Below, in pieces: positions 1,858-61,636 of a stretch of DNA of 64,000 bases (positions within the stretch are counted from its first letter, which is position 1; the number at the start of each line of letters is the position of its first letter). Below the pieces are notes generated by a model. The model was not told the DNA's origin. It ran no database searches and worked only from the letters and a program-made list of their open reading frames with translations. The translations under genes were made by a program, and so were the position numbers. The stretch comes from a virus (Duplodnaviria > Caudoviricetes): the IMG/VR virus record IMGVR_UViG_2885360797_000005; one strand, 5' to 3'.

Positions 1858-1865
1858 TATCTTTG
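1858..1865 (+). promoter_or_regulatory. Bacteroidetes -7 promoter box for hsdM
   Basis: TATCTTTG matches TAnnTTTG, 133 nt before the start codon. Confidence 0.55.
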
Positions 1866-1997
1866 CAAATGAATGGTAACTGCATTAAAATGACCTAATA
1901 GAGAAAATAAAACGATACATTAAACTCCTTTGCTGTCTTTATAGGCTTGGTCAGCCTTGCAGGGACTGCTAGGAGTTTTTTTTGTTTATTATAGAAT

Positions 1998-3536
1998 ATG
2001 GCAAAGAAAAAAACAACGGACATAGTAAAGAAAACCATTGAGCAAACGCTATGGGATTCGGCAAATGAGTTGCGAGGTAATCTTGATGCTGCCGAGTATA
2101 AAAGTGTGGTGCTTGGACTGGTATTCCTAAAATACATCAACGACTGCTTCAAAGTTAAGCACGATGAACTTGTGGCTGAAGGCGAAGGCTTTGAGGAAGA
2201 CCCTGACGAATATATTGGCGATAACATATTCTTTGTTCCTGTCGATGCTCGTTGGGAAAAGGTTGTCAATGCCTCTCTTACTGCCGAAATCGGAGTTGTC
2301 GTTGATGCGGCAATGGAAGCATTGGAGAAAGAGAACAAGCAACTCAAAGGCATTCTTCCCAAAAACTATGCTCGCCCGGAACTTGATAAACGCCGCTTAG
2401 GTAACGTAATTGATATTTTTGAAAACAACCTCCACTTTACAGGTTCGGAAGCTCGTGATGTGCTTGGACGTGTATATGAATATTTCCTTGGAGAATTTGC
2501 CCGTGAAGAAGGCAAGAAAGGTGGTGAGTTCTATACTCCTTCATGTGTTGTTCGCACCATAGTCGAAGTTATCCAACCCTACAAAGGAAAAATCTTTGAC
2601 CCCGCTTGCGGTTCGGGTGGTATGTTTGTGCAGAGTAGTAAGTTTATAGAACGTCATCAAGGTAATATCAATAAAATATCCGTCTATGGTCAGGAACTTA
2701 ACAGCAATACGTGGAAATTAGCGCAAATGAACCTTGCCATTTGTGGAATTGAAGCAAATTTTGGCGACAGCTTCGGAGATTCTTTTCACGATGACAAACA
2801 TCCATTTTTGAAAGCGGATTTCGTAATGGCAAATCCACCGTTCAACATTTCCAAATGGGGCGGTGACCAATTACGTGATGACCCACGTTGGCAATATGGC
2901 ATACCGCCGGAGGGAAACGCCAACTTTGCATGGATGCAACACATGTTATATCACCTGGCAGACAATGGACGCATCGGTTTGGTTCTTGCCAATGGCTCGT
3001 TATCCTCACAACAAGGCACAGAAGGGAATATTCGTGAAAACATCGTCAAAGCCGATTTGGTGGAAGGTATTATCGCCATGCCATCCCAACTGTTCTATAA
3101 TGTGCAGATTCCATGCTGCTTATGGTTCTTAACAAAGAGCAAAGCACAACCGGGCAAGACGCTTTTCATAGATGCTCGTAACATGGGCTATATGAAAGAC
3201 CGTACACACCGTGAACTCTCTTGTGGGGAAGAAACGGAGGATCATGGCAACGACATAGCACGTATCGCTGATACTTTCGAGCAGTTCCGTGCAGGAACGC
3301 TTGAAACCGAAAAGGGATTCTCTGCGATTGCCACGATTGAGGATATAGAGAAACAAGACTTTATCCTCACTCCAGGACGTTACGTTGGAATTGCCGAGGT
3401 TGAGGAAGACGGTGAACCTTTCCAAGAAAAGATGGAGCGTCTTACTTCCGAACTTTCTGATTTGTTCGCACAGTCACACACGCTCGAAGACGAAATACGC
3501 AAGCAATTGGCAAAGATTGGTTTTACCGTCAAGTGA
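1998..3536 (+). CDS. hsdM: Type I restriction-modification methyltransferase subunit M
   Basis: GEFYTP, DPACGSGG and ANPPF (N6-adenine MTase) motifs; 512 aa. Confidence 0.97.
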   Translation: MAKKKTTDIVKKTIEQTLWDSANELRGNLDAAEYKSVVLGLVFLKYINDCFKVKHDELVAEGEGFEEDPDEYIGDNIFFVPVDARWEKVVNASLTAEIGVVVDAAMEALEKENKQLKGILPKNYARPELDKRRLGNVIDIFENNLHFTGSEARDVLGRVYEYFLGEFAREEGKKGGEFYTPSCVVRTIVEVIQPYKGKIFDPACGSGGMFVQSSKFIERHQGNINKISVYGQELNSNTWKLAQMNLAICGIEANFGDSFGDSFHDDKHPFLKADFVMANPPFNISKWGGDQLRDDPRWQYGIPPEGNANFAWMQHMLYHLADNGRIGLVLANGSLSSQQGTEGNIRENIVKADLVEGIIAMPSQLFYNVQIPCCLWFLTKSKAQPGKTLFIDARNMGYMKDRTHRELSCGEETEDHGNDIARIADTFEQFRAGTLETEKGFSAIATIEDIEKQDFILTPGRYVGIAEVEEDGEPFQEKMERLTSELSDLFAQSHTLEDEIRKQLAKIGFTVK

Positions 3537-3582
3537 TATGACTTCTACTCTTCGTTAGGTTCACCATATAATAACGAAGAAT

Positions 3583-4575
3583 ATGAAAGAAAAATTAATT
3601 CAAGAAATCAGCACCGCAATGGCAGAAGTGTTAAGTTTTGAACAAGTAGCTCACCTTAATAGCGTATTGCTTCAAGTCGTAAGCCAATACACTATTACCG
3701 AAGATGGCGAGACGCTGCACGAAAATGCAGCGTCTAACGACCGTCTGCTTGACATATTCCTGTCTGCAAAACAAGTGGAGGGTTGCACAACTCCGACAAT
3801 CAAATACTATGGTTCAACCATTCGGCAGTTATTCAAGAAGATGCCTAAAAAGGTCACCGACTATACTACAGAGGATATCAGAGCCTACCTTGCTGTATTT
3901 CAGCGAAAAAACAAATCAAGCAAAGTTACCATTGATAATATTCGTCGGATATTTTCTTCGTTCTTTGCTTGGCTTGAAGAGGAGGACTACATCGTCAAAA
4001 GCCCTGTCCGCAGAATACATAAGGTGAAAACAGGAACACAGGTCAAGGAGGTGTTGAGTGATGAGAATATCGAGCAACTCCGTGATAGTTGCACTAAAAT
4101 CCGTGACCTTGCCATTATCGACTTGTTGGCTTCAACCGGTATGCGTGTTGGTGAATTGGTAAAACTCAATCGTGAAGACATTAACTTCACAGAGCGTGAA
4201 TGTATCGTATTTGGTAAGGGCAACAAGGAACGTATAGTTTACTTCAATGCTCGCGCAAAGATTCATTTACAACAATACTTGTCTTCTCGCAAAGACCGAA
4301 ACAAGGCTCTCTTTGTCTCTTTAGCTAAACCGCATAAACGCTTGGAAATTTCGGGCGTGGAAACTCGTTTGCGTAAAATTGGGCGCACTGCAAAGATTGT
4401 ACGTGTTCATCCTCACAAGTTCCGCCGTACATTGGCAACAATGGCAATTGACAAAGGTATGCCTGTGGAACAAGTGCAACGCTTGCTTGGTCATGTCAAG
4501 ATTGACACTACCATGCACTATGCAATGGTTAATCAAAACAATGTCAAACTCTCACACCGTAAATTCATAAATTAA
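3583..4575 (+). CDS. Tyrosine recombinase of the type associated with hsdS shuffling
   Basis: TGMRVGEL, HPHKFRRT and LLGH..TTMHY catalytic residues; lies inside the hsd locus. Confidence 0.93.
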   Translation: MKEKLIQEISTAMAEVLSFEQVAHLNSVLLQVVSQYTITEDGETLHENAASNDRLLDIFLSAKQVEGCTTPTIKYYGSTIRQLFKKMPKKVTDYTTEDIRAYLAVFQRKNKSSKVTIDNIRRIFSSFFAWLEEEDYIVKSPVRRIHKVKTGTQVKEVLSDENIEQLRDSCTKIRDLAIIDLLASTGMRVGELVKLNREDINFTERECIVFGKGNKERIVYFNARAKIHLQQYLSSRKDRNKALFVSLAKPHKRLEISGVETRLRKIGRTAKIVRVHPHKFRRTLATMAIDKGMPVEQVQRLLGHVKIDTTMHYAMVNQNNVKLSHRKFIN

Positions 4576-4576
4576 C

Positions 4577-5221
4577 ATGTGGTATTGTTCGACATATAAC
4601 AGTAGCTCATCTTTCCTCAAAAATAAACAAGGAAATGATAATTTAGAGCAGCAGGCGCAAGCGTTGTTCAAGTCTTGGTTTATTGAAAATGCCATATATT
4701 CAGGGGATAAAATAGCGGATTATTTTATGCCAATTAGAGGTAAAAATCTGCTAACATCAGAAGCTACGGGTGGTAACGTTCCTGTAGTTGCAGGAGGCCT
4801 AAATCCTTCAGCTTATCATAATACAGCAAACACAGATGCTCCTGTAATCACAATATCCGCTTCTGGTGCGAATGCTGGTTTCGTAAATCTTTGGGGAATT
4901 CCCGTATGGTCTGCTGATTCATCATATATAGATAGTTCCGTAACACCTTATGTGTATTTTTGGTATAATCTATTGAAATATAAGCAAAAGAATATATTTG
5001 AGGCACAAACTGGTTCTGCACAACCCCACATTTATCCTAAGCATATTGGAGATATTGAAATTCCAAACTTAGATTTATCTCAAATACAGCTATACAATAA
5101 TGTCGTTTCAACTTATTACCATAAGATTGATGAGAACAATACAGAAAACTGTCGTTTGGCTACATTAAGAGATACACTTCTCCCAAAACTTATGGCAGGG
5201 AATATAAGTCTTGATTATTAA
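4577..5221 (+). CDS. hsdS: Spare C-terminal half of HsdS (TRD2'); homology begins at 4633
   Basis: NDNLEQQAQALFKSWF...TGSAQP...LRDTLLPKLMAG; the first ~19 codons are not HsdS-like. Confidence 0.88.
   Translation: MWYCSTYNSSSSFLKNKQGNDNLEQQAQALFKSWFIENAIYSGDKIADYFMPIRGKNLLTSEATGGNVPVVAGGLNPSAYHNTANTDAPVITISASGANAGFVNLWGIPVWSADSSYIDSSVTPYVYFWYNLLKYKQKNIFEAQTGSAQPHIYPKHIGDIEIPNLDLSQIQLYNNVVSTYYHKIDENNTENCRLATLRDTLLPKLMAGNISLDY
4633..4680 (+). repeat. hsdS central repeat, copy A (core + right arm)
   Basis: 46/48 identical to 7146-7193; core AAATGATAATTTA at 4633-4645. Confidence 0.9.
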
Positions 5222-5239
5222 TCATTTAGGCAAAACAAT

Positions 5240-5491
5240 ATGATTGAAAAGATAATAAATAGGAATATAGGAAAGAGTCAAAAATGTAGGGTGAAATATG
5301 GAAACAACTCTGAATTTGATCTTTTGATTGTCAACATCAATGATGGCGAAAGGGTACGCAAGTTCTCAATAGAAGCAAAACATCTTTCCTCTGAGAAAGA
5401 TTCTATTTATTTCTATCCTGAGACAAAGAACGATGTGGTTACAATAAGATGGAATCATGAGATTGAAAACTACATAAACGAAGTACAATAG
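5240..5491 (+). CDS. Hypothetical protein within the hsdS cassette region
   Basis: 83-aa ORF filling the gap, co-oriented. Confidence 0.65.
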   Translation: MIEKIINRNIGKSQKCRVKYGNNSEFDLLIVNINDGERVRKFSIEAKHLSSEKDSIYFYPETKNDVVTIRWNHEIENYINEVQ

Positions 5492-5528
5492 GCTACGAAC
5501 ATTTGTAGTCAAACTACTATATTATGTT

Positions 5529-6617
5529 ATGAATGACTTTGAAGAATATATAAGACAAGGTGAGCCTCAAAAAAGAGAAAAAGGCTATGCTTGGCAAACA
5601 GCCATCGGATTGCAGGCGGTGGATGCCTTGAAGCCCTCGGAATATCTGATACAAACGGCACGTCAGCATATTGAGGGCGATATAACTATCGAAGAAGCCA
5701 AACAGCTTATAGATAGTTATTATCAATCAAAGACCGTTAGAGCAGACATCGAAGACAGAACAGAAGAAGCCGATAAGGTTTCAGCACGTATTGCCGAAAT
5801 ATTATCGGAGAAGACGTTTACATTTTCGCCCGTTGAGTATATCACCATTCATCGCCGCCTGTTCCAAGGCATCTATAAATTTGCAGGAAAGGTCAGGGAT
5901 TACAATATCACCAAAAAGGAATGGGTGCTGAAAGGCGAAACTGTACTTTATGCCAGTGCCGACAGTATACGTGAAACGCTTGATTTCGATTTCATGCAGG
6001 AAAAGAATTTTAGCTATAAGGATTTGAACATCAATGATGCTATCACACACATCGCTAAGTTTATTTCCGGAGTTTGGCAGATTCACGCTTTCGGTGAGGG
6101 AAATACCCGTACAACGGCAGTGTTTACAATCAAATACCTGCGCACGTTTGGCTTCGACATCAGCAATGAAGCGTTTGCCAATCACTCTTGGTATTTTCGT
6201 AACGCTTTGGTTCGAGCAAATTATAACAACTTGAGCAAAGGTATTTACGCTACCACCGAATATATCGAAGCGTTCTTTAGAAACCTTATTCTTTCCGAGC
6301 ATAACGAACTAAAGAACCGAGCAATGCTTGTGCAAGAACTTTCTGCCCAAGACATTCAAAGTGCAAACACGATAAAAGAAGTCTCTCCAAAGTGCAATAT
6401 TTGCACTTTAAATTGCACTTTAGAAGAAATTGCCGTACTGAACTTCTTGCGAGAACAGCCTAAAGCCACGCAAAAAGAAATTGCAGCGCATATAGGCAAA
6501 TCTGAGAGAACAGTGAAGACCATTACCGTAAATTTGACCGAAAAAGGTATCATAGAGCGCAAAAATGGTAAAAGAAATGGCTTTTGGGAGATTATAACGA
6601 ATGATTTAAACAGCTAA
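5529..6617 (+). CDS. Fic-domain protein with N-terminal antitoxin-like region and C-terminal winged HTH
   Basis: HAFGEGNTRT Fic motif variant; C-terminal TQKEIAAHIGKSERTVK HTH. Confidence 0.88.
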   Translation: MNDFEEYIRQGEPQKREKGYAWQTAIGLQAVDALKPSEYLIQTARQHIEGDITIEEAKQLIDSYYQSKTVRADIEDRTEEADKVSARIAEILSEKTFTFSPVEYITIHRRLFQGIYKFAGKVRDYNITKKEWVLKGETVLYASADSIRETLDFDFMQEKNFSYKDLNINDAITHIAKFISGVWQIHAFGEGNTRTTAVFTIKYLRTFGFDISNEAFANHSWYFRNALVRANYNNLSKGIYATTEYIEAFFRNLILSEHNELKNRAMLVQELSAQDIQSANTIKEVSPKCNICTLNCTLEEIAVLNFLREQPKATQKEIAAHIGKSERTVKTITVNLTEKGIIERKNGKRNGFWEIITNDLNS

Positions 6618-6648
6618 ATTCTCATTTATGGAACAGTGGAAAGAATAT
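6604..6648 (+). repeat. 45-bp direct repeat spanning the hsdS start, copy 1
   Basis: 44/45 identical to 7817-7861. Confidence 0.9.
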
Positions 6649-7830
6649 CAATTAAAGGATGTAACCACCATTTTAGGTGATGGTTTACATGGAACTCCAG
6701 AATATGACGAAAATGGAACTGTGTTTTTCATCAATGGTAATAATCTTGTTGATGGGAAAATTGAGATAAAAGATTCAACAAAGCGTGTTTCAGAAGAAGA
6801 AGCTAATAAGTATAGGAAAAATCTAACCCAGCGAACTATATTCGTTTCTATCAATGGAACAATCGGCAATGTTGCAAAATATAAAGGAGAAGCATGTATT
6901 TTGGGCAAAAGTGCTTGTTACTTTAATGTGGCTGAAAATTTCGACTTGAATTTTATATATTATGTTGTAGCCTCGCAACAATTTAAAGATGCAATAACAC
7001 GTTTAGCTACAGGTACTACAATTAAAAATGTATCATTGGAAACAATGAGGAATTATTCATTTATGGCACCAAGCATAAATGAACAAAAACGCATCTCGTC
7101 TATCCTTTCTTCTCTCGACTCTAAAATTGAGCTGAACCGCCGGATAAATGATAATTTAGAGCAGCAGGCACAAGCGTTGTTCAAGGCTTGGTTCGTGGAA
7201 TTTGAACCATTTGGAGGCACAATGCCAAGCAATTGGGAGATTTGCGAAGCTCAAAAATACTTCAATATAAATATAGGGAAAACTCCTCCACGGAATGAAA
7301 TGCGATGGTTTAGCCAAAAATCAACAGATTGTAAATGGGCCTCTATTTCAGATCTTGGCAAATGTGGACTTTTCATTAACGATACGTCTGAATATCTGAC
7401 TAAGGATGCGGTAGAAACTTTTAATATAATCGTTGTGCCAAAAGGTACTATCTTGTTAAGTTTCAAACTCACGCTTGGACGAGTTTCAATAACAACTTGT
7501 CCACTTACAACAAATGAAGCTATTGCTCGATTCTTGATTAATCACGATTATGAACGAGAGTATTTGTATTTGCTTCTAAAGCAATTCGATTATACGTCTC
7601 TGGGTAATACATCATCTATTGCTACTGCTGTTAATTCTAAAATAATAAGAAGTATGCCGATAATGATGCCAACAGTTGATGTTCTACAGCGATTCCATCA
7701 TATTGTTAGTCCTATTTTTACAAGAATGCGTTTTTTGTCGGATGAAATAATGCAGCTTACAGATACTCGTAACACAGTTCTCCCACAACTGATGTCGGGC
7801 GGGCTAAAAATTAACAATTTAAACTGCTAA
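6628..7830 (+). CDS. hsdS: Complete type I specificity subunit (TRD1-TRD2)
   Basis: Two TRDs joined by LDSKIELNRRINDNLEQQAQALFKAWF; ends LPQLMSG. Confidence 0.95.
   Translation: MEQWKEYQLKDVTTILGDGLHGTPEYDENGTVFFINGNNLVDGKIEIKDSTKRVSEEEANKYRKNLTQRTIFVSINGTIGNVAKYKGEACILGKSACYFNVAENFDLNFIYYVVASQQFKDAITRLATGTTIKNVSLETMRNYSFMAPSINEQKRISSILSSLDSKIELNRRINDNLEQQAQALFKAWFVEFEPFGGTMPSNWEICEAQKYFNINIGKTPPRNEMRWFSQKSTDCKWASISDLGKCGLFINDTSEYLTKDAVETFNIIVVPKGTILLSFKLTLGRVSITTCPLTTNEAIARFLINHDYEREYLYLLLKQFDYTSLGNTSSIATAVNSKIIRSMPIMMPTVDVLQRFHHIVSPIFTRMRFLSDEIMQLTDTRNTVLPQLMSGGLKINNLNC
7111..7193 (+). repeat. hsdS central repeat, copy B (left arm + core + right arm)
   Basis: Left part matches ~8354-8401, right part matches 4633-4680; core at 7146-7158. 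Confidence 0.9.
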
Positions 7831-7861
7831 ATTCTCATTTATGGAACAGTGGAAAGAATAT
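7817..7861 (+). repeat. 45-bp direct repeat spanning the hsdS start, copy 2
   Basis: 44/45 identical to 6604-6648. Confidence 0.9.
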
Positions 7862-8422
7862 AAAATATCTGAAATAATAGAAGAAATCGCAATGGGGCCT
7901 TTTGGCTCAAATATCAAAGTCGATAACTTTATTGACTCTGGTATTCCTGTCCTTAATGGCTCAAATTTGCAGGGTATCAAATTAAATGAGGATTCGTTTA
8001 ACTACGTTTCTGAAGAAAAAGCGGATACTCTTGGTAGAGCTAATGCCTTCAGGGGAGATGTTGTTATTACCCATAGAGGTACATTGGGGCAAATAGTGTA
8101 TATACCTCTTGATTCGAAGTATGAAAGATATGTTATATCGCAAAGTCAATTTAGATTGAAACTCAATAAGGATATTATAAGACCGGATTTCTTTGTATAT
8201 TTTTTTCACACACGTTTGGGGCAGCATAGATTGTTGGTGAATGCTTCTCAAGTGGGAGTACCTGCATTAGCAAGGCCAACTTCCACCTTTAAGGAAGTAT
8301 TTATTCCCGTCCCACCAATGGAAATGCAAAATAAAGTAATGGGCGTACTCCATTCTATCGACTCAAAAATCGAGCTGAACCGCCGTATAAATGATAATTT
8401 AATTCCAACCTATTATGCCTAA
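7841..8422 (+). CDS. hsdS: Spare N-terminal half of HsdS (TRD1')
   Basis: Same MEQWKEY start, a different TRD, ends IDSKIELNRRINDNL then diverges. Confidence 0.9.
   Translation: MEQWKEYKISEIIEEIAMGPFGSNIKVDNFIDSGIPVLNGSNLQGIKLNEDSFNYVSEEKADTLGRANAFRGDVVITHRGTLGQIVYIPLDSKYERYVISQSQFRLKLNKDIIRPDFFVYFFHTRLGQHRLLVNASQVGVPALARPTSTFKEVFIPVPPMEMQNKVMGVLHSIDSKIELNRRINDNLIPTYYA
8354..8401 (+). repeat. hsdS central repeat, copy C (left arm + core)
   Basis: Near-identical to 7111-7158; core at 8389-8401. Confidence 0.9.
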
Positions 8423-11400
8423 AACGTTCCATTTTACAGAAGATTCATACGAGCAGTCGATTATCTCCTTGTTCAAGGATATGGGCTATGAATATCATTA
8501 TGGCCCGGAACTCGAATCCGATACCTGTCGAGAACTCACTGATGCTACCATACCGGGAGCATTACGCAAAGCAATGTTGATTATCAATGGAACAGACAAA
8601 ACTGGAGCCGTTGACGAAGCTATCCGACAAATCCGTGAACTATTCAGCCAGCCTTTGGTTAGCGCAAACGTGACCCTTACCGACTGGTTACAAAATGGTT
8701 TGGACGTTACATTCAAAACCGGGCAAGGAACATTGCGCAGTGACCATATCAAAATAATAGACCCTGTTAATATAGACAACAACTCATTTGTAGTTGCCAA
8801 TCAATGGACGGTTGTAAACGGTAACTCCACCAAACGTGCTGACATCGTGGTGTTCGTCAATGGTCTGCCTGTCTCAGTCATTGAGTTAAAATCTCCTTCC
8901 CGTGAAGTTACCAATTCGGAGGAAGCACACCAACAGTTGCAGAACTATATGCGTATCGTTCCACAACTCTTTACTGCTTGTCAAATGCTTGTGATAAGCG
9001 ATATGGCTGATACTCGTGTGGGTACTATTACAGCCCCTCTTGACCGATATATGGAGTGGAAAACCACAGATGGAAGTTACGAAAGCACTGCATTTGCTGA
9101 CTTTGAGACTTTTTTCAATGGCATCTTCACCAAACATCGCTTCATTGATATTATGTCAGATTTCACTCTTACAATGGGAGTGGATAAAAAAGTCCGTATA
9201 CTTGCAGGCTACCATCAATATTTTGCCGTTAAGAAAGCTCTTGACTGCACAAAACAAGCCTTACAACGTAATGACGGTAAAATTGGTGTATTTTGGCACA
9301 CACAAGGTTCTGGCAAGAGTCTTTCAATGGTATTCTATGCCCATCAACTTTTGAAAAATCTGCTGAGTGCCACCTTACTTGTATTGACCGACCGCCTCGA
9401 TTTGAACGACCAACTGCATAACACTTTTGCGGCTTGTAGCGATTACTTACGCCAAACGCCTATAAAGGCTACTGATGGCGAACACTTGTATGAACTGCTT
9501 GAAAAGCGTAAAAGTCATGGTATCATCTTTGCCAACATCCAAAAATTCAAAGACCGTGACAAACTGATTACCAATCGTTCTGATGTAATTGTGATTAGTG
9601 ATGAAGCCCATCGTACACAATCAAACACAAGAACAAAGGTAGATACAGAAACCGGTGAACTAAAACTTGGCTTTGCGGCTATCGTACGTAAACTTTTGCC
9701 TCATGCTGCGTTCATCGGTTTTACAGGTACACCTATCGAGCAAGACGATAACGATACAAGAGAAGTATTCGGCAACTATATTGACATCTACGACATGACC
9801 CAAGCCGTGGAAGACGGTGCCACTGTTCCTGTCTATTATGAAAGTCGCTTGTTAAAATTGGATTTGGATGCCGATACGCTTAAATTGCTGGATAACGAGT
9901 ATGAAAAGCTTGCGGAAGAAGGAGCAGAGGAACAGGACATCAAACGCTCCAAGGATGAAAACGCACGTATTCATGCCCTACTCTCAGCACCACAAACTAT
10001 CGATACCCTGTGTAAAGACATCATAGGTCACTACGAGAACAACCGTGCCGATTTGCTTACGGGCAAGGCTTTGATTGTGGCGATAGACCGTGCTACCGGA
10101 ATTGATATTTACAAAAAGCTGATAGAACTTCGTCCTCAGTGGAAAGACATTATTTGTGTTGTCATGACACAAGGAAACCAAGATCCAGTGGAATGGAATG
10201 ACATTATTGGCTCTGGCGCACGAAAAGAGGAACTGGCTCGTCAGTTCAAAGACAACAATTCACCATTGAAAATCGCTATTGTCGTGGATATGTGGCTCAC
10301 AGGTTTTGATGTACCTTCGCTTGCCACGATGTACGTTTACAAGCCCATGAAGGGGCATAATCTGATGCAGGCTATTGCCAGGGTAAATCGTGTTTTCCCG
10401 GAAAAGAGCGGTGGTTTGGTGGTAGATTATATTGGCATAGCCAAGGCTCTTAAAAAAGCCATGCACGACTATACAGGACGTGACAAGAAACGCTTTGGTG
10501 ACCCGAATATCAAGACTACCGCTTATCAGCAATTTGTTGCTGCACTAAAGCGTTGCCGTGAATGTATGGATGACTACGACTATTCAGCGTTTGCAGACTG
10601 TTCCAACTTGCAACGAGCCAATCTTATAAGAGGTGGTGTAAACGTGCTGCTTGACAAGAACAATCTTGTTTCCTCTCAACCTACCACCCAGACTGATGAA
10701 AACGGCAACATTATTTTAGTGGACTCCGTTCCTGCCGAAGCACAAAAGGTATTTATGGAAGAAAGCAAACGTCTGGCACAAGCTGCATCGCTTTGTCGTA
10801 GCCTGCTGACTCCAGCGGAACGTTATGAAGAAGCATACTTTGAAGCGGTTAGGACATTGCTTTTGCGCCTTACGGGAAACAAAAATATTACTCGAAAAAT
10901 TATAGACGAGCGTATTACACAGTTGCTCAAAGTGGCTATCAAGGCTGACGGCGTGGTGGAAATACTCAGCACCAAAGGGACTGAATTTTCTCTTTTTGAC
11001 GAGAATTTTTTGAAAGAGATTGCCGAGATGAAAGAGAAAAATTTTGCGCTCGAACTTCTCAAACGTTTACTTGAAGAACATATCAGGAAACATGCTAAAA
11101 AGAGAATGGTAGAAGCCGAAAAGTTTAGTGAAATGCTTGATGCCCGACTTGCCGAATACTTGCGTGGCTTGATTTCCAACGAGGAGGTGATAAAAGAGTT
11201 GCTAAAAATGGCGCAGGAGCTGAAAGCGAATGCAGAGCAAGCATCAGAATTGGGACTGACAGAAGAAGAACAAGCATTTTACGATGCTTTGACAAAACCA
11301 CAAGCCGTAAGGGATTTCTACGAAAACGACCAACTTGTTGCGATGGCAAAGGAACTGACCGAAGCCTTACGCAGTAGCAAAACGATTGACTGGCGGCAGA

Positions 11401-11540
11401 AAGAGTCGGCTCGTGCCAAGATGCGCTCTATGGTGAAACGATTGCTCAAAAAGTACAAATACCCACCAGAAGAACAAGAAGCTGCACTTGAAACAGTTAT
11501 TCGTCAGTGTGAACTCTATGCAGATTCAGACGAAGTATAA
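8415..11540 (+). CDS. hsdR: Type I restriction endonuclease subunit R
   Basis: D..VIELK nuclease motif, HTQGSGKS, DEAHR, FTGTP, QAIARVNR. Confidence 0.97.
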   Translation: MPKTFHFTEDSYEQSIISLFKDMGYEYHYGPELESDTCRELTDATIPGALRKAMLIINGTDKTGAVDEAIRQIRELFSQPLVSANVTLTDWLQNGLDVTFKTGQGTLRSDHIKIIDPVNIDNNSFVVANQWTVVNGNSTKRADIVVFVNGLPVSVIELKSPSREVTNSEEAHQQLQNYMRIVPQLFTACQMLVISDMADTRVGTITAPLDRYMEWKTTDGSYESTAFADFETFFNGIFTKHRFIDIMSDFTLTMGVDKKVRILAGYHQYFAVKKALDCTKQALQRNDGKIGVFWHTQGSGKSLSMVFYAHQLLKNLLSATLLVLTDRLDLNDQLHNTFAACSDYLRQTPIKATDGEHLYELLEKRKSHGIIFANIQKFKDRDKLITNRSDVIVISDEAHRTQSNTRTKVDTETGELKLGFAAIVRKLLPHAAFIGFTGTPIEQDDNDTREVFGNYIDIYDMTQAVEDGATVPVYYESRLLKLDLDADTLKLLDNEYEKLAEEGAEEQDIKRSKDENARIHALLSAPQTIDTLCKDIIGHYENNRADLLTGKALIVAIDRATGIDIYKKLIELRPQWKDIICVVMTQGNQDPVEWNDIIGSGARKEELARQFKDNNSPLKIAIVVDMWLTGFDVPSLATMYVYKPMKGHNLMQAIARVNRVFPEKSGGLVVDYIGIAKALKKAMHDYTGRDKKRFGDPNIKTTAYQQFVAALKRCRECMDDYDYSAFADCSNLQRANLIRGGVNVLLDKNNLVSSQPTTQTDENGNIILVDSVPAEAQKVFMEESKRLAQAASLCRSLLTPAERYEEAYFEAVRTLLLRLTGNKNITRKIIDERITQLLKVAIKADGVVEILSTKGTEFSLFDENFLKEIAEMKEKNFALELLKRLLEEHIRKHAKKRMVEAEKFSEMLDARLAEYLRGLISNEEVIKELLKMAQELKANAEQASELGLTEEEQAFYDALTKPQAVRDFYENDQLVAMAKELTEALRSSKTIDWRQKESARAKMRSMVKRLLKKYKYPPEEQEAALETVIRQCELYADSDEV

Positions 11541-11555: not shown

Positions 11556-13916
11556 ATGGAAGCTAAAGATAGAGAACAATTATATAACGATTTTCAAAAG
11601 GCATTCCCTCTAGAGAAATTGAAGGACATGACTTTGGAGCAATATACAAATTTGAACAGGGAAGATTCATTTTGCTATTGGCTTGAATCAAAGACATCCG
11701 AATTAGGGTCAATATGGGGAGGTGCCGCCTATAAATTTGGTATATTCAAGTTCGACAAATTTCCTAAGCAGGATAATGGGAAATATACACATGATGATAA
11801 CTATTCTTGGAGTAGTCGTTTAGGCAGTACATCAGAAGAGGCATTTAACAATGTCAAGAATGCAATAGTGAAGATAGCTGAACACGCCAGTAATGCACAA
11901 TGGAACGAAATTGAAAAGATAAACGAGTTGTGGCCTGTAACTACATGGAAGATTGCTTTCTTATATTCCAATATGTCCCTTGTCCCCATTTATAAACGGG
12001 ATATGTTGGACACATTGGCAAGATATTTTAAGATAAACACCCTTAAAGGGAAAAAGACATCTGACATACAGCAGTTCTTGATGAAGCAAAAAGGAGACAA
12101 AAACCTCTTTGTCTTCTATGGGGAACTTCTGAGTATTCTGGAAGCTGAAAATAAAAAGAAAACAGAAACAAAGCAGGAAATCAAATACTGGATTTGCGCA
12201 CCGGGTGACCGTGCAAGTAAATGGGATTTATGCCAACAAGATAACATCATCAGTATCGGATGGGACGAAATGGGCGATTATCGTCAATACCCATCTCTTG
12301 ATGATGTAAAGAAACGTATGCAGACAATCTATGATAAGCCTGACGCATCATTTAAGAATGACAGTTTGGCCATTTGGCAATTCTGCAACGAAATGACCCC
12401 GGGAGATATAATATATGCCAAAGCCGGACAAAAGAAATTTGTCGGTCGTGGCATTGTGATGTCTGAATATATCTATAACGAAGATTATTCAGACTACATG
12501 AATGTCAGAAGGGTTAAATGGACGCATATTGGAGAATGGGAAGCTCCGCATAATACAGTTCAAAAGACCCTGACTGACGTTACTCAATACACCAATTACG
12601 TTAGAACCTTGGAGGATATGTTTGAGGGTAAAGAATCCAGACGATATTGGTGGCTTGTGGCCAGTCCCAAAATATGGAGCTTTGACAAAATGAAAGTTGG
12701 TGAAGAACAAGATTATACGCTATATAATGATAATGGCAACCAACGACGGATATTTCAAAACTTTCTGGATGCTAAAGAAGGTGATTTGATAATAGGATAT
12801 GAAGCCACTCCTACAAAGAAAATTGTAGCCTTAGCAGAAGTGTCAAAGGATACGGATGACAAGTATTTCTATTTCAAAAAGACAGAAACATTGCTTTCTG
12901 CCATTGATTTCCTATCTATTAAGGAGAATCCTGTTTTTGCGGGGATGGAATTTTTCAAGAATATGAATGGTTCTTTATTCAAACTTTCCACAGATGAATA
13001 CAAGGAACTGATGGATGTCATTCGGGAACAGAATCCAATTCGTACGGATGTAAAGTCGCAAAAGTATGAAAAAGAGAATTTCTTGTCTGACGTGTTCATG
13101 AACGAAGAGGAATACGACAAATTAACTATGCTTCTCAAAATGAAGAAGAATGTAATTCTTCAAGGAGCACCCGGTGTGGGCAAGACTTATTCTGCCAAAC
13201 GATTGGCTTATGCCCTAATGGGAGAAAAGGATGATTCCCGAATAGAATTTGTCCAGTTTCATCAGAACTACAGTTATGAAGATTTTATCATGGGCTACAA
13301 ACCAAATGCAGAAGGAGGTTTTGAGTTGCGTAATGGTATTTTCTATAACTTCTGTAAGGTTGCTCAGAACAATCCAGAAAAGCAACATTTCTTTATTATT
13401 GATGAGATTAACCGTGGTAATCTGAGTAAAATCTTCGGAGAATTACTGATGCTGATAGAAAGTGATTATCGCGATACAGAAATCAAATTGGCTTATAAGG
13501 ACGAACTGTTTTCTGTCCCCAAAAATCTATACATCATCGGAATGATGAATACAGCTGATAGGAGTTTGGCTATGATAGACTACGCACTTCGTCGTCGTTT
13601 TAGCTTTTTCGAGATGAAACCCGGATTCGATTCTATAGGATTCATAAAGTACCAAAAAGAAGTTATAGGAGATACTTCTTTTGTTAAAGTCATAGATGGG
13701 ATTAAGAACCTCAACGACACAATAGAAAAAGAGTTCGGAAGAGGATTCTGTATCGGGCACAGTTTTTTCTGTAAGCCTAATACAGAAACATATACCATTG
13801 CATGGCTGAAGAATGTGATAGAGTTTGACATTAAACCCATGATTCTTGAATATTGGTTCGACAATGAAAAGAAAGCCCAACAGGAGATTGACAAACTAAC
13901 TCTTTTACTTCAATGA
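11556..13916 (+). CDS. mcrB: McrB-family AAA+ GTPase with extended N-terminal reader domains (EVE/PUA-like)
   Basis: GAPGVGKT, QFHQNYSYEDF, DEINRG, NTADRS, ALRRRF. Confidence 0.93.
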   Translation: MEAKDREQLYNDFQKAFPLEKLKDMTLEQYTNLNREDSFCYWLESKTSELGSIWGGAAYKFGIFKFDKFPKQDNGKYTHDDNYSWSSRLGSTSEEAFNNVKNAIVKIAEHASNAQWNEIEKINELWPVTTWKIAFLYSNMSLVPIYKRDMLDTLARYFKINTLKGKKTSDIQQFLMKQKGDKNLFVFYGELLSILEAENKKKTETKQEIKYWICAPGDRASKWDLCQQDNIISIGWDEMGDYRQYPSLDDVKKRMQTIYDKPDASFKNDSLAIWQFCNEMTPGDIIYAKAGQKKFVGRGIVMSEYIYNEDYSDYMNVRRVKWTHIGEWEAPHNTVQKTLTDVTQYTNYVRTLEDMFEGKESRRYWWLVASPKIWSFDKMKVGEEQDYTLYNDNGNQRRIFQNFLDAKEGDLIIGYEATPTKKIVALAEVSKDTDDKYFYFKKTETLLSAIDFLSIKENPVFAGMEFFKNMNGSLFKLSTDEYKELMDVIREQNPIRTDVKSQKYEKENFLSDVFMNEEEYDKLTMLLKMKKNVILQGAPGVGKTYSAKRLAYALMGEKDDSRIEFVQFHQNYSYEDFIMGYKPNAEGGFELRNGIFYNFCKVAQNNPEKQHFFIIDEINRGNLSKIFGELLMLIESDYRDTEIKLAYKDELFSVPKNLYIIGMMNTADRSLAMIDYALRRRFSFFEMKPGFDSIGFIKYQKEVIGDTSFVKVIDGIKNLNDTIEKEFGRGFCIGHSFFCKPNTETYTIAWLKNVIEFDIKPMILEYWFDNEKKAQQEIDKLTLLLQ

Positions 13917-14959
13917 GTGTGAATAAGAACATATTCATCAAGAATATCTACTATATGTTGGCATACGCTTTCCAAGAGTTGCAACGTAATCAGTATGAAG
14001 ATATTCAGAGTGAGGATTTCGACGAGATACATCAATTGCTTGCCGAAATTCTCATTCATGGTGTATCGTTTCAGTTAAAAAAAGGTCTGCACAAGGAGTA
14101 CATTTCTAAAACTGAATCTATAGCATCAGTGAAAGGGAAAATAGATATACCGGGCACTGTGCAGCACCTTATGCAGAGAAAAATGCGTATATCATGCCAG
14201 TATGATGAATTGTCAGAAAATTGTCTATTTAACCAAATCATTAAAACAACATGTGAGATACTTTTATCACATCCATCTGTAAAGACTAGCCAGAAATTTA
14301 CGATTAAACGTCTAATGCTTTTCTTTTCAGAAGTGAATGAAATACCCCCTCTTTCTATTAAGTGGAACTTGTTGCGTTATGATAGAAACAGTAGAACATA
14401 TCAAATGTTGCATTATATCTGCTTCTTCATTATTGACAATATGATACTGACAAGCCAAGAAGGGAAATTCAAAATGAGTCGCTTTTCTGATGAGCATATG
14501 TGCAGATTATATGAAAAGTTTGTCTTAGAGTATTATCGAAAGGAACATCCCGAAACAAAAGCCCGTGCAGCTCAAATCAAATGGAATATTGACGAACAGC
14601 TATCAACAACGGATATATTACCCATACTCCAAACAGACATCTATCTTACACTAAAAGATAGAACACTTATAATTGATACGAAGTATTATAGTCAAACTAT
14701 GCAGGAGCATTTTGATAAGGTAAGTATTCACAGTGCTAACCTTAACCAAATACTTGTCTATGTTTTAAATGAAGATGATAATATGCAGGGGAAAGTAGAT
14801 GGAATGCTGCTATATGCAAAGACAGATGAAGATATTGTACCTGATGGTCAATTAAAATGGAAGACTGGTAGCACTATATATTTCAGGACACTTGACTTAG
14901 GTGTTGATTTTAAGTATATTCGCAAACAACTGGATGATTTTTTAATCACTAAATCATAG
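13913..14959 (+). CDS. mcrC: McrC modification-dependent nuclease subunit
   Basis: IKNIYYMLAYAF start, TDI..IIDTKYY nuclease motif; 4-nt overlap with mcrB. Confidence 0.93.
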   Translation: MSVNKNIFIKNIYYMLAYAFQELQRNQYEDIQSEDFDEIHQLLAEILIHGVSFQLKKGLHKEYISKTESIASVKGKIDIPGTVQHLMQRKMRISCQYDELSENCLFNQIIKTTCEILLSHPSVKTSQKFTIKRLMLFFSEVNEIPPLSIKWNLLRYDRNSRTYQMLHYICFFIIDNMILTSQEGKFKMSRFSDEHMCRLYEKFVLEYYRKEHPETKARAAQIKWNIDEQLSTTDILPILQTDIYLTLKDRTLIIDTKYYSQTMQEHFDKVSIHSANLNQILVYVLNEDDNMQGKVDGMLLYAKTDEDIVPDGQLKWKTGSTIYFRTLDLGVDFKYIRKQLDDFLITKS

Positions 14960-19364: not shown

Positions 19365-21593
19365 ATGCAAAAGCTCCGTTGTGTAGTAGAACGAATCACC
19401 TACCAAAATCCCGAAAACGGGTATTCGGTGATGAGGGTCAAGGTCAAAGGATACAATGACCTTGTAACCCTTGTCGGCAATCTGTTGGAAGTGCCGGCAG
19501 GGAGTGTTCTGCTGTGCGAAGGGGATTGGAAAGTGGATAAGCGATACGGCAACCAGTTTGTAGCGGAGAGTTGGGAAGAGGTCATGCCCGCCACCATCTA
19601 TGGCATAGAGAAGTACCTGGGCAGCGGACTGGTGAAAGGCATCGGCCCGAAATTCGCCCAACTTATCGTCAGTCGTTTCGGACTGGAAACCATCGATGTG
19701 ATTGAAACCGATATTGAACGGCTCCACGAAGTGCCCGGCATCGGCAAGAAACGTGTGGAGAAGATTGCCGAGAGTTGGGAGAAGCAGAAGGACATCAAGA
19801 ACGTGATGCTCTTCCTGCAAGGTTATGGAGTCAGTACCGCATACGCTGCCAAAATCTATCGTCAATACGGAAAAGAAAGCATTGATACCGTCAAGGCCAA
19901 TCCCTATAAACTGGCAGATGACATCTGGGGCATCGGTTTCAAGACAGCCGACGGCATAGCCGCCAAGATGGGTTATGAGAAGAACGACCTTCGTCGTTGC
20001 AAGAGCGGCATCACCTACACACTCAGCCACCTTTCCGAAGAAGGACACGTCTATGCCGAAGAGGAACAACTCCTGAATGCGGCCATCGAACTCTTGAAGG
20101 CGGACGAAGAACCCATCCGTCAGGCTATGTCAGAAATGTTGCAGAGTGAAGACCTGATACAAGACGGTGACGCACTCTATATGCCACCCTTCTATTATGC
20201 AGAAGTAGGAACAGCCAACCGTCTGAGCGGATTATTGAATAATGCGGACGGAAATCTCTTCCAAAAAGCATTAGACATCGCTGCCATCTCCAAAGCCTCC
20301 GGCATAGAGTATGACGAAGTGCAGGTGGAAGCCATCCGTGAAGCAGTCGCCTCCAAGGTTATGGTGCTGACAGGTGGTCCCGGAACGGGAAAGACCACCA
20401 CCACACAAGGAATCATCGCAGCCTTGAAGAGCATGGGACTGAGCATCCTGCTTGCCGCACCTACCGGACGAGCCGCCAAACGAATGAGTGAAGCGACAGG
20501 GATGGAGGCAAAGACCATCCACCGCCTATTGGAATACAATCCGAAAGACGGTTACAAACGCAATGACGAGAACCCGTTGGAAGGGGATGCCCTTATCGTG
20601 GACGAATGTTCCATGATAGACATCATTCTGATGAACAACCTGATGAAAGCCTTACCAACGAATATGCGCCTGGTATTGGTGGGCGACATCGACCAGTTGC
20701 CCAGCGTAGGTGCCGGAAACGTACTTCGTAACATCATCGACTCTGAGAGAATACCGGTCATCCGCCTGACACGCATCTTCCGACAGGCACAGACCAGCCG
20801 TATCGTCATGAGTGCCCATGCCATCAACAAGGGACAGTTCCCCGACACCAGCAACGGCAAGCAGACCGATTTCTTCTTCATGCAGATAGAAGAACCGGAA
20901 CAGGTGGCGGAAACCATCGTCAAGTTGGTAAAGGAACGATTGCCCAAAGCATACAACCGCCCGGCAAGCGACATCCAAGTCCTCACACCTATGCAACGAG
21001 GGGTGGTAGGTGCAGCCAATCTGAATATAGCCCTACAAGCCGTTCTGAACACCTCCCAGTTGGTACTGACCAGAAGTGGTTATTCCTTCCGTCAAGGCGA
21101 CAGAGTGATGCAACTCCGCAACAATTATGACAAGGATGTGTTCAACGGTGACCTGGGATATGTAGAGAAAGTGAACTTGGAAGATAGAACCCTGCAAGTG
21201 GACTTCGATGGCAAGTTAGTGGAATACGAAGTTTCGGAACTGGACGAGCTGACCTTAGCCTACGCAACAACCATCCACAAGTCGCAAGGCTCGGAATATC
21301 CCATCGTGGTGATGCCTGTCCTGATGACGCACTACGTGATGCTCCAACGCAACCTTATCTATACAGGTATCACCCGTGCTAAGAAGATTTGTGTACTGGT
21401 AGGAACAAAGAAAGCATTGTCTTTCGCCATCCGCAATATGTCGGTGCTGAAACGCAACACGAAATTGAAAGAACGGCTGAATCCGGCATTAACACAACCC
21501 GGCAAAGCCACGTCCCCCAAAGAATATATGCTTCCGACACAAACGGAGTACGGCATGGTAGCAGAAGAGAAAACTGAATACGGAAAGAAATAG
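19365..21593 (+). CDS. recD2: RecD2 (SF1B) ATP-dependent DNA helicase
   Basis: HhH GIGPK repeats, GGPGTGKT, APTGRAAKR, DECSM, GDIDQLPSVG, TIHKSQGSE, YTGITRA. Confidence 0.95.
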   Translation: MQKLRCVVERITYQNPENGYSVMRVKVKGYNDLVTLVGNLLEVPAGSVLLCEGDWKVDKRYGNQFVAESWEEVMPATIYGIEKYLGSGLVKGIGPKFAQLIVSRFGLETIDVIETDIERLHEVPGIGKKRVEKIAESWEKQKDIKNVMLFLQGYGVSTAYAAKIYRQYGKESIDTVKANPYKLADDIWGIGFKTADGIAAKMGYEKNDLRRCKSGITYTLSHLSEEGHVYAEEEQLLNAAIELLKADEEPIRQAMSEMLQSEDLIQDGDALYMPPFYYAEVGTANRLSGLLNNADGNLFQKALDIAAISKASGIEYDEVQVEAIREAVASKVMVLTGGPGTGKTTTTQGIIAALKSMGLSILLAAPTGRAAKRMSEATGMEAKTIHRLLEYNPKDGYKRNDENPLEGDALIVDECSMIDIILMNNLMKALPTNMRLVLVGDIDQLPSVGAGNVLRNIIDSERIPVIRLTRIFRQAQTSRIVMSAHAINKGQFPDTSNGKQTDFFFMQIEEPEQVAETIVKLVKERLPKAYNRPASDIQVLTPMQRGVVGAANLNIALQAVLNTSQLVLTRSGYSFRQGDRVMQLRNNYDKDVFNGDLGYVEKVNLEDRTLQVDFDGKLVEYEVSELDELTLAYATTIHKSQGSEYPIVVMPVLMTHYVMLQRNLIYTGITRAKKICVLVGTKKALSFAIRNMSVLKRNTKLKERLNPALTQPGKATSPKEYMLPTQTEYGMVAEEKTEYGKK

Positions 21594-56468: not shown

Positions 56469-56495
56469 ATACAATTATTTAATAAGTTGAACCTT

Positions 56496-56548
56496 GGTGT
56501 AAGCAGGTGTAAGCAAGGGGGTCATTTGGTGTAAGCAGAGAGTAAGCA
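56496..56548. repeat. Direct repeats GGTGTAAGCA x3 plus AGTAAGCA, candidate integrase arm sites
   Basis: Copies at 56496, 56506, 56528 and 56541, between int and the element end. Confidence 0.7.
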
Positions 56549-56604
56549 AATACGTTCATTTGGCTCATTTTTTGCGGTCAAATGCACGAACCGCCTAAGC
56601 GCAA

Positions 56605-56647
56605 ATCAGGCTGTAAATTCTGCTATTGCAGTGATTTACAGCCTGAT
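56605..56647 (-). terminator. 14-bp inverted repeat at the ICE end; probable ppdK terminator
   Basis: ATCAGGCTGTAAAT / ATTTACAGCCTGAT, 25 nt past the ppdK stop. Confidence 0.65.
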
Positions 56648-56671
56648 ATTAGTATTTATTTACCTAGAGTA

Positions 56672-59395: not shown

Positions 59396-59436
59396 AGCGA
59401 TAATTTAAAATATTTTATTATATGTGAACTATGACG

Positions 59437-59444
59437 CAAAATTA
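59437..59444 (-). promoter_or_regulatory. -7 promoter box for ppdK
   Basis: TAATTTTG on the minus strand, 42 nt upstream of the start. Confidence 0.55.
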
Positions 59445-59532
59445 TAAAAATAAGTGTTATGTACCAAAAGAAGTTACTATTTTTTCCACCCCGCTTATCA
59501 AAAAAACGACTTAAGTTTAGCTAAAAAAAACA

Positions 59533-59589
59533 AAAGAAACGCCCCATGTTTGAATTTTAATTTAACTTTCAAACATAGGGCGTTTCTTT
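59533..59589 (-). terminator. Terminator downstream of the DUF4301 gene
   Basis: AAAGAAACGCCC.ATGTTTGAA / TTCAAACAT.GGGCGTTTCTTT with a flanking A-run. Confidence 0.75.
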
Positions 59590-59641
59590 ACTCAATTTGT
59601 CATGTTATCCCATTCTGCCTATAGACATTAGACAATGAATA

Positions 59642-61165: not shown

Positions 61166-61636
61166 AGATTCAATTTTTGAAAACTTCTCAAAATAAGAAA
61201 GAATATCACCACAACTGCGGTATTTCGCAAAATTAAATACTTTTGCCGACAAAACACCTATTACAAACAGTTTTTTGAATAAAAAAATGAGCCACTAATA
61301 TAAATTCCAGAAAATCAATTAACATTAACAGAAAACAGGTCTCTAATATTTTTGTATTCTGTCTCATTGACATATCCTCCAATTAGAGCGGAACAAAGAG
61401 TAGAATTCATTGCCACATTCTCTCAAATCTCTGTACATGTTGCAATTTTCCTTACCCTTATATTCTAGAATTGCGATCGTATTCAGTCGGAAATTCAACA
61501 TATATTAATAAGCATCTTTCTTTTCAAGTCTATGAATACATCCGCCATTCTTTTAAATCTAAATGACCACACAAATTCTATAAAAACAAAAGCTGAAAAT
61601 GGAAAGCCTGAAAAAAATCACTAACTTTGCAACATT

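What the first reader, a model, noticed from the sequence alone, without database searches (positions are those of the whole stretch)
3583..8422. hsdS shuffling locus built on direct repeats (excision-reintegration type) on an ICE
Seen: recombinase, spare TRD2', full TRD1-TRD2 and spare TRD1' are all co-oriented, so simple inversion cannot swap them. A 13-bp core, AAATGATAATTTA, occurs at 4633, 7146 and 8389, exactly where homology starts or stops: core+right arm, full site, left arm+core. Recombination between cores would give circles with in-frame TRD1-TRD2', TRD1'-TRD2 or TRD1'-TRD2', so four specificities in total. Known: Bacteroides hsdS shufflons are usually invertible, whereas the pneumococcal tvr (SpnIV) locus shuffles by excision and reintegration. 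Inference: a tvr-like mechanism, here on a conjugative element.
Basis: partly seen in the sequence, partly recalled or inferred. Interest (0 to 1): 0.8.

Follow-up and report, generated by a model that had tools for sequence, protein, structure and literature searches.

The report
Direct-repeat hsdS cassette shuffler, Bacteroidales
A restriction-modification locus on a gut Bacteroidales conjugative element changes its DNA target by cutting out and re-inserting gene halves at two kinds of 14-base sites rather than by flipping them. Searches for inverted repeats would miss this kind of switch, which occurs in many gut species.

Summary

**Locus.** hsdM, a tyrosine recombinase, a spare C-half (T2'), orfX, Fic, a full hsdS (T1-T2), a spare N-half (T1') and hsdR all lie on one strand. 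The 13-base core is exact at 4633, 7146 and 8389.

There is a second site class. A sites (TAAAT-GATA-ATTTA) alternate with B sites (TAAAT-TCTC-ATTTA), all in direct orientation.

**Recombinase.** It is 64-65% identical to that of the streptococcal SsuCC20p system. Published work shows that system's recombinase-dependent shuffling at inverted TAAAT-CATC-ATTTA sites.

**Evidence of shuffling.**
- All four predicted hsdS alleles exist in public assemblies at 100% identity per half, on 82-116 contigs each.
- One SNP-marked T1' occurs with both partners.
- In a sister element, three metagenome contigs with 99.4-100% identical flanks carry the same four modules in three orders, with breakpoints at the 14-base sites. 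A fourth contig is the deletion product.

**Distribution.** About 35 species representatives carry this direct-site layout. Their recombinases are separated from inverting relatives by one fully supported branch.

**Not shown.** Circles, recombinase dependence and methylation changes are untested. Homology to TvrR could not be tested.

**Verdict.** New variant of a known kind.

The parts
1858..1865 (+). Candidate Bacteroidetes -7 promoter box TATCTTTG ahead of hsdM. Homology of the whole R-M module to sister loci begins here.
   Evidence: Regex scan. blastn homology to L002-L004, L088 and L091 starts at 1858-1889 and ends at 11530. Promoter function is inferred only.
1998..3536 (+). hsdM (Type I methyltransferase)
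   Evidence: Pfam N6_Mtase 1.7e-105 and HsdM_N 3.4e-24.
3583..4575 (+). Tyrosine recombinase, intact, SsuCC20p-recombinase family. It lies outside the shuffled segment.
   Evidence: Pfam Phage_integrase 3.8e-37 plus SAM-like N domain. It is 64-65% identical to the S. suis, S. mitis and S. pneumoniae SsuCC20p-type recombinases, with catalytic-region columns invariant.
4632..4645 (+). Site A1 (GAAAT-GATA-ATTTA): core plus right arm only
   Evidence: In about 50 related loci an A site lies 55-68 nt after the recombinase stop.
4646..6614 (+). C-module 1: spare C-terminal TRD T2' (to 5221) with passengers orfX (5240-5491) and Fic-wHTH (5529-6617). The ORF 4577-5221 starts 1 nt after the recombinase stop.
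   Evidence: Pfam Methylase_S and Fic. PADLOC PDC-S72 4.6e-145 for Fic. T2' is found fused to T1 and to T1' in public proteins.
6615..6628 (+). Site B1 (TAAAT-TCTC-ATTTA). It contains the TAA stop of the upstream ORF, and its last base is the A of the next module's ATG.
6628..7144 (+). N-module T1 (N-terminal TRD of the full hsdS 6628-7830)
   Evidence: Pfam Methylase_S 2.2e-34 for the 400-aa ORF. That exact protein is on 116 contigs.
7145..7158 (+). Site A2 (TAAAT-GATA-ATTTA), full site, codes I-N-D-N-L in the central conserved region
7159..7827 (+). C-module 2: C-terminal TRD T2
7828..7841 (+). Site B2 (TAAAT-TCTC-ATTTA)
   Evidence: It shares a 36-nt exact run with B1.
7841..8387 (+). N-module T1' (spare N-terminal TRD). 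Its ORF 7841-8422 overlaps the hsdR start by 8 nt.
   Evidence: Pfam Methylase_S 8.7e-13. It is fused to T2 (P0002) and to T2' (P0003) in public proteins. The overlap with hsdR is conserved in the sister loci.
8388..8401 (+). Site A3 (TAAAT-GATA-ATTTA): left arm plus core only
   Evidence: It shares only 13-15 nt of exact identity with A1 and A2.
8415..11540 (+). hsdR
   Evidence: Pfam HSDR_N, SWI2_SNF2 and T1RH-like_C.

Best explanation

**Sites.** There are two heterospecific classes with the same arms, TAAAT...ATTTA, and different central bases. A (GATA) lies in the middle of hsdS. B (TCTC) lies at the stop/start junction.

**Layout.** The order is int - A - [T2'+orfX+Fic] - B - [T1] - A - [T2] - B - [T1'] - A - hsdR. 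Only the middle A site joins an N-module to a C-module into a full hsdS.

**Mechanism.**
- Recombination between two like sites on one chromosome excises a circle.
- Re-insertion at another like site, A into A or B into B, permutes the modules.
- C-modules stay in C slots and N-modules in N slots, and every junction stays in frame.
- This gives four arrangements and four specificities.

**Shown here:** the sites, their orientation, the recombinase family, the four alleles, and (in a sister element) permuted orders and a deletion product.

**Inferred:** catalysis by this recombinase, a free circle as intermediate (an exchange between sister chromosomes would give the same products), and changed methylation.
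For: **Layout.** Everything is co-oriented with no inverted repeats.

**Sites.** Two direct site classes are conserved across relatives. The central 4 nt is matched within a locus but differs between loci: A = CGCA twice in L008, A = CATA in L030-34 and L055, and B = TCCC in L009-11.

**Recombinase.** It is intact and 64-65% identical to the SsuCC20p recombinase. The published 14-bp target of that recombinase is TAAATCATCATTTA, and its deletion stops TRD shuffling (PMC10790761). I found those sites in L062, L063 and L069.

**Alleles.**
- T1-T2 is on 116 contigs, T1'-T2 on 92, T1'-T2' on 82 and T1-T2' on 86, each half 100% identical.
- The longest contigs run from 194 kb to 2.4 Mb.
- T1' carrying R181C occurs with both T2 and T2'.
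- L082 reads T1-A-T2'-orfX.

**Sister element.**
- L083, L087 and L088 hold the same four modules in three orders.
- Their flanks are 99.4-100% identical and the breakpoints lie at the sites.
- L090 is L004 minus one A-to-A segment.
- L003 and L004 are permuted relative to each other.

**Short identity at A3.** Crossovers at A3 have only 13-15 nt of exact identity. From general knowledge, that is too short for efficient RecA recombination.
Against: - No circle junction, read-level heterogeneity or methylome was available.
- The B repeats share 36 nt and A1/A2 share 24 nt of exact identity, so some events could be RecA-dependent. In tvr the long repeats do recombine without TvrR (PMC6265443).
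- L135 and L136 carry one module twice, which simple permutation does not predict.
- A1 has an imperfect left arm.
Confidence: 0.8

Rival explanations
1. The cassettes are reassorted by RecA-dependent homologous recombination or gene conversion across the 36-55-bp conserved repeats, and the recombinase is not the driver.
For: Exact runs of 36 nt (B1/B2) and 24 nt (A1/A2) exist. TvrR-independent recombination occurs at the long repeats in tvr (PMC6265443). Duplicated module m0 in L135 and L136 looks like conversion or unequal exchange.
Against: - Two of the three alternative alleles need a crossover at A3, where exact identity is only 13-15 nt.
- In most loci the modules are permuted without duplication.
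- The 14-bp arms are invariant across a recombinase family that spans Bacteroidota and Streptococcus, while the spacers differ between loci.
- In the homologous SsuCC20p system the same 14-bp site needs the recombinase.
- The recombinase sits next to an A site in about 50 loci.
Confidence: 0.1
2. The locus is static in this strain. The spare halves are relics, and the hybrid alleles in databases arose by rare exchange between strains over evolutionary time.
For: The assembly shows one order only. Minimal one-plus-one loci such as L014 and L002 exist and look fixed.
Against: - The four alleles are each 100% identical per half and about equally frequent.
- The same rare R181C cassette has two partners.
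- The sister element shows three orders at 99.4-100% flank identity.
- The recombinase and all five sites are intact.
Confidence: 0.06
3. The hybrid alleles and permuted orders are mis-joins made by assemblers at the repeats.
For: Most sources are short-read metagenome assemblies, and the loci contain repeats.
Against: - Exact repeats are 36 nt or shorter. That is below the final k-mer sizes usually used (inference).
- All four alleles sit on long contigs of 194 kb to 2.4 Mb, and some come from NCBI genome records.
- Only legal arrangements are seen, with C-modules in C slots and N-modules in N slots.
Confidence: 0.03

Closest known systems
tvr locus / SpnIV of Streptococcus pneumoniae (Kwun et al. 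2018, PMC6265443)
   Same: - All hsd genes and TRD cassettes are on one strand.
- There are two kinds of direct repeat, one at the hsdS midpoint and one at its end.
- A tyrosine recombinase is encoded in the locus.
- A four-cassette locus gives four arrangements.
- A Fic/Doc-fold gene lies inside the locus.
- The mechanism in tvr was demonstrated as excision and reintegration.
   Different: - Here the two site classes share arms but differ in the central 4 nt, whereas the tvr repeat types are reported to share one ~11-bp core.
- The recombinase sits upstream of the first site and so stays on the chromosome, whereas tvrR rides on the circle.
- The embedded gene is a 362-aa Fic-wHTH (PDC-S72) without a Phd partner, and sister loci carry a YhcG nuclease instead.
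- The host phylum is Bacteroidota and the locus is ICE-borne.
- Homology of the recombinases is untested.
SsuCC20p phase-variable Type I system of Streptococcus suis and other streptococci (PMC10790761)
   Same: The recombinase is 64-65% identical. The 14-bp site design is the same, TAAAT-N4-ATTTA, placed at the hsdS midpoint. The operon runs from hsdM to hsdR with the recombinase inside.
   Different: SsuCC20p has four identical sites in alternating orientation (CATC/GATG), and shuffling is by inversion. Here there are two spacer classes, all direct, and no inverted cassette.
Inverting hsdS shufflons (B. fragilis BF9343_1753-1760, PMC7641763; pneumococcal ivr/SpnIII)
   Same: One expression site is combined with silent half-genes, and the outcome is several methylation specificities within a clone.
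   Different: Those use inverted repeats and oppositely oriented silent cassettes. The inverted-repeat test fails here.
Engineered recombinase-mediated cassette exchange with heterospecific lox or FRT sites (from my own knowledge)
   Same: Sites with identical recombinase-binding arms and incompatible spacers keep a cassette's orientation and slot fixed during exchange.
   Different: That is an artificial design used between two molecules. Here it appears natural, acts within one locus, and is reversible.

Membership tests
tvr-type excision-reintegration hsdS locus | All hsd genes and TRD cassettes are on the same strand | tested here: met
   There are no minus-strand TRDs in about 35 related loci.
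tvr-type excision-reintegration hsdS locus | Two types of direct repeat (midpoint and tail end) in one orientation | tested here: met
   A sites at 4632, 7145 and 8388; B sites at 6615 and 7828.
tvr-type excision-reintegration hsdS locus | Near-identical loci carry the same cassettes in different orders | tested here: met
   Four alleles of this locus. L083, L087 and L088 show three orders.
tvr-type excision-reintegration hsdS locus | Circular intermediates are present | not testable with these tools
   This needs PCR or reads. Only the deletion product L090 was seen.
tvr-type excision-reintegration hsdS locus | Recombinase is an orthologue of TvrR | not testable with these tools
   No TvrR sequence could be reached. 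The streptococcal genomes searched held no tvrATR-type locus.
tvr-type excision-reintegration hsdS locus | Doc-Phd pair (tvrAT) and the recombinase lie together on the excised segment | tested here: not met
   The recombinase lies upstream of A1. The embedded gene is Fic-wHTH with no Phd. Sister loci carry YhcG/DUF1016 instead.
SsuCC20p-type recombinase and site family | Recombinase is homologous to the SsuCC20p recombinase | tested here: met
   64-65% identity over the full length.
SsuCC20p-type recombinase and site family | 14-bp TAAAT-N4-ATTTA sites at TRD borders | tested here: met
   The published sites are quoted.
SsuCC20p-type recombinase and site family | Sites are in inverted pairs flanking invertible TRDs | tested here: not met
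   All sites are direct. The recombinases fall on the other side of a 100/100 branch.
Classic inverting hsdS shufflon | Inverted repeats within oppositely oriented hsdS copies | tested here: not met
   Only chance-level inverted pairs were found.

The most novel reading that the evidence does not exclude
The locus is a natural heterospecific-site cassette exchanger that arose once from an inverting SsuCC20p-type shufflon.

It may do more than swap one hsdS. The first C-half ORF is translationally coupled to the recombinase gene, and the last N-half ORF ends just after the final A site (overlapping the hsdR start in this locus and its close sisters). Both features are conserved in dozens of loci, and in minimal loci such as Phocaeicola vulgatus L014 these are the only hsdS parts.

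These end halves may therefore work as a split or half-size HsdS, so each arrangement would express two specificities. Passenger defence genes (Fic/PDC-S72, YhcG nuclease) would move with the C-module.
Probability: 0.25. Interest if true: 0.85.

Novelty: new variant of a known kind. Interest (0 to 1): 0.68.

Why it matters
- **Detection gap.** Surveys of phase variation in gut bacteria look for inverted repeats. A direct-repeat shuffler is invisible to them, yet this layout occurs in about 35 Bacteroidales species representatives among the 80 closest loci and in many gut and rumen metagenome contigs.
- **Generality of the mechanism.** Excision-reintegration, shown so far only for the pneumococcal tvr locus, would be a widespread way to vary methylation and restriction in the gut. 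Here it is carried between species by conjugative elements.
- **Evolution of recombination systems.** One recombinase family with one site design yields inversion or excision purely through site orientation and spacer class. This gives a clean natural system for studying how recombination outcome evolves.
- **Experimental access.** Cultured strains carry related loci, so experiments are feasible: Prevotella histicola T05-04, Segatella maculosa DSM 19339 and Phocaeicola vulgatus ATCC 8482.

Tried and rejected
- **Inversion.** No usable inverted repeats were found. The minus-strand near-copies of the core at 6615 and 7828 are the B sites, a separate class, not inverted A sites.
- **Context of the three alternative alleles of this exact locus.**
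  - The metagenome scan gave only one near-identical contig, L082.
  - The viral and plasmid collections gave nothing useful.
  - The genus search found T2' only in the window's own genome.
- **TvrR comparison.** I searched streptococcal genomes for recombinase, hsdM and Fic/Doc hits. I found SsuCC20p-type loci and recombinase-free Type I loci, but no tvrATR.
- **orfX.** No family was found in Pfam or PADLOC, and it has no counterpart in the other loci. It may not be a real gene.
- **Assembly chimeras.** I rejected these as the main cause on repeat length and contig size.
- **Literature.** No paper in the library links a tvr-like mechanism to Bacteroidales. Huang et al. 2020 note one direct-repeat locus in Sphaerochaeta.
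Full report
**1. Observation.** The stretch holds a Type I restriction-modification operon written entirely on the + strand:
- hsdM, 1998-3536
- a tyrosine recombinase, 3583-4575
- an ORF with a single C-type TRD, 4577-5221
- a small ORF, 5240-5491
- a Fic plus winged-helix protein, 5529-6617
- a full hsdS, 6628-7830
- an ORF with a single N-type TRD, 7841-8422
- hsdR, 8415-11540

The 13-base core is exact at 4633, 7146 and 8389. With one mismatch allowed there are 5 matches, against 0.34 expected by chance. The right arm is shared by 4633 and 7146, and the left arm by 7146 and 8389. No meaningful inverted repeats exist.

**2. A second site class.**
- It contains TAAATTCTCATTTA at 6615 and 7828. 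The midpoint sites read TAAATGATAATTTA.
- Both classes have the arms TAAAT and ATTTA and differ in the central four bases. I call them A (GATA) and B (TCTC).
- A codes I-N-D-N-L in the central conserved helix of HsdS.
- B holds the TAA stop of the upstream ORF, and the ATG of the next N-module begins at its last base.
- The locus therefore reads int - A - C-module (T2', orfX, Fic) - B - N-module (T1) - A - C-module (T2) - B - N-module (T1') - A - hsdR.

**3. The recombinase and its site.**
- The recombinase is intact. It is 64-65% identical over its full length to recombinases in Streptococcus suis 10581, S. mitis and a genome labelled S. pneumoniae.
- Those loci carry TAAATCATCATTTA four times in alternating orientation, and L062 and L063 differ by an inversion.
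- This is the published SsuCC20p system. Its paper gives exactly these 14-bp inverted repeats, names isolate 10581, and shows that deleting the locus recombinase stops TRD shuffling (PMC10790761).
- The 14-bp TAAAT-N4-ATTTA site is thus an experimentally supported target for this recombinase family.

**4. Family survey.**
- Among the 80 closest genome loci, those whose recombinase is 71% or more identical to the window's (about 35, all Bacteroidales or MAGs with that content) have every TRD on the same strand and alternating direct A and B sites.
- Those at 61-68% identity have the same site in inverted pairs (GATA/TATC, CATA/TATG, CAGA/TCTG, CATC/GATG) and minus-strand TRDs.
- The central four bases vary between loci but match within a locus: A is CGCA twice in L008 and CATA throughout L030-34 and L055, and B is TCCC throughout L009-11. 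The arms never vary.
- A maximum-likelihood tree of 54 recombinases separates 26 direct-layout loci from 28 inverted-layout loci by one branch with 100/100 support. The root is unknown, so the direction of the change is not shown.
- Metagenome loci repeat both patterns. L097 has seven alternating sites.

**5. Evidence that the cassettes move, in this locus.**
- Searching the spare halves against longer proteins found full-length HsdS proteins that are exact hybrids:
  - P0002 is T1'-T2.
  - P0003 is T1'-T2'.
  - P0268 is T1-T2'.
  - Each half is 100% identical to the window's.
- Exact-sequence contig counts are 116 (T1-T2, the window's own), 92, 82 and 86. The longest contigs run from 194 kb to 2.4 Mb.
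- A rare variant of T1' (R181C) occurs fused to T2 (23 contigs) and to T2' (7 contigs).
- A metagenome contig, L082, reads T1 - A - T2' - orfX.

**6. Evidence for order changes, in a sister element.**
- L083, L087 and L088 are three human gut metagenome contigs with 99.4-100% identical flanks and modules.
- They carry the same four modules in three orders (C11 N12 C13 N14; C13 N12 C11 N14; C13 N14 C11 N12).
- Each module is present once, C-modules sit only in C slots, and left and right flanks reassort exactly at the 14-bp sites.
- L003 and L004 (L004 = L091) show a similar permutation.
- L090 equals L004 minus the segment between two A sites, which is the product expected of excision without reintegration.

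**7. Mechanism.**
- Recombination between like sites in direct orientation on one molecule must excise a circle.
- Re-entry at another like site permutes the modules:
  - Excision at B sites and re-entry through A swaps the C-modules (T1-T2').
  - Excision at A2/A3 and re-entry through B swaps the N-modules (T1'-T2).
  - Excision at A and re-entry at the third A swaps both (T1'-T2').
- All four alleles exist, so both classes must be active.
- Crossovers at A3 rest on only 13-15 nt of exact identity, which argues for a site-specific enzyme.
- Shown: the sites, the family link, the alleles, the orders and the deletion product.
- Inferred: that this recombinase catalyses the events, that a free circle (rather than an exchange between sister chromosomes) is the intermediate, and that methylation changes.

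**8. Rivals.**
- RecA-dependent exchange is possible at the 36-nt B and 24-nt A1/A2 runs. It could explain the duplicated module in L135 and L136. It does not fit the A3 events or the spacer logic.
- A static relic does not fit four equally common exact alleles.
- Assembler mis-joins do not fit repeats of 36 nt or less and very long contigs.

**9. Comparison with known systems.**
- The behaviour matches the pneumococcal tvr locus: one strand, two direct repeat types, a locus recombinase and four arrangements, with excision-reintegration demonstrated there (PMC6265443).
- It differs in three ways:
  - The site classes differ in their central bases.
  - The recombinase lies outside the excised part.
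  - There is no Doc-Phd pair.
- Orthology to TvrR could not be tested.
- By sequence the locus belongs with SsuCC20p, but it fails that system's defining inverted-site feature.
- I found no paper in the library tying this mechanism to Bacteroidales. One direct-repeat locus in Sphaerochaeta was noted in passing by Huang et al..

**10. Extras.**
- C-modules carry passengers: Fic-wHTH here (PADLOC candidate PDC-S72) and a YhcG/DUF1016 nuclease in sister loci.
- In about 50 loci the first C-half ORF starts within a few bases of the recombinase stop, and the last N-half ORF ends just after the final A site. In this subgroup it overlaps the hsdR start.
- Minimal loci such as L014 (Phocaeicola vulgatus) hold only these two halves. 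This raises the untested idea that the end halves act as a split or half-size HsdS.

**11. Context.**
- The window holds TraG, TraM, a coupling protein, a relaxase and ArdC.
- Sequences flanking the operon (675-1247 and 19374-20485) are shared with L014, while the operon itself (1858-11530) appears with other flanks in L002-L004.
- The operon is therefore a cargo module at a variable spot of a Bacteroidales conjugative element.

Noticed in passing
window 11556-14959: An AAA_5 plus EVE-domain protein (786 aa) followed by a 348-aa ORF directly after hsdR looks like a McrBC-type modification-dependent restriction pair. It is absent from the same position in L014.
   Followed up: partly
window 5529-6617: The Fic protein has a non-canonical motif, HAFGEGNTRTT, and matches PADLOC candidate PDC-S72 end to end (E 4.6e-145). 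Its last codons and stop are the hsdS 3' tail and the B site, so it was inserted inside a C-module.
   Followed up: partly
L014:8993-11445 (Phocaeicola vulgatus ATCC 8482 isolate); also L002, L005, L090: These are minimal loci with one C-half ORF (its ATG overlaps the recombinase stop) and one N-half ORF, and no full-length hsdS. Either they are dead-end excision products or the halves work as a split HsdS.
   Followed up: partly
L135, L136 (metagenome contigs): The same C-module (m0) occupies both C slots. Simple permutation does not produce this duplication.
   Followed up: no
L097 (metagenome contig): There are seven alternating A and B sites. With three C-modules and three N-modules, up to nine hsdS alleles are possible.
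   Followed up: no
L003, L004, L058, L061, L066: Recombinases 63-97% identical sit in MAGs labelled Clostridia, Roseburia, Succinivibrio, Oscillospiraceae or Aeriscardovia. This probably reflects mis-binning of a mobile element, and transfer across phyla is not excluded.
   Followed up: no
window 46529-48397: A group II intron reverse transcriptase/maturase with an HNH domain lies next to the conjugative TraG gene.
   Followed up: no
window 54972-61252: Pyruvate phosphate dikinase (56672-59395) and DUF4301 (59642-61252) look like chromosomal housekeeping genes. One end of the conjugative element probably lies between about 53 and 56 kb.
   Followed up: no
L181, L202, L203 (Streptococcus mitis group): These Type I operons have a RhuM-family gene between hsdM and hsdS and several same-strand half hsdS ORFs, but no recombinase.
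   Followed up: no
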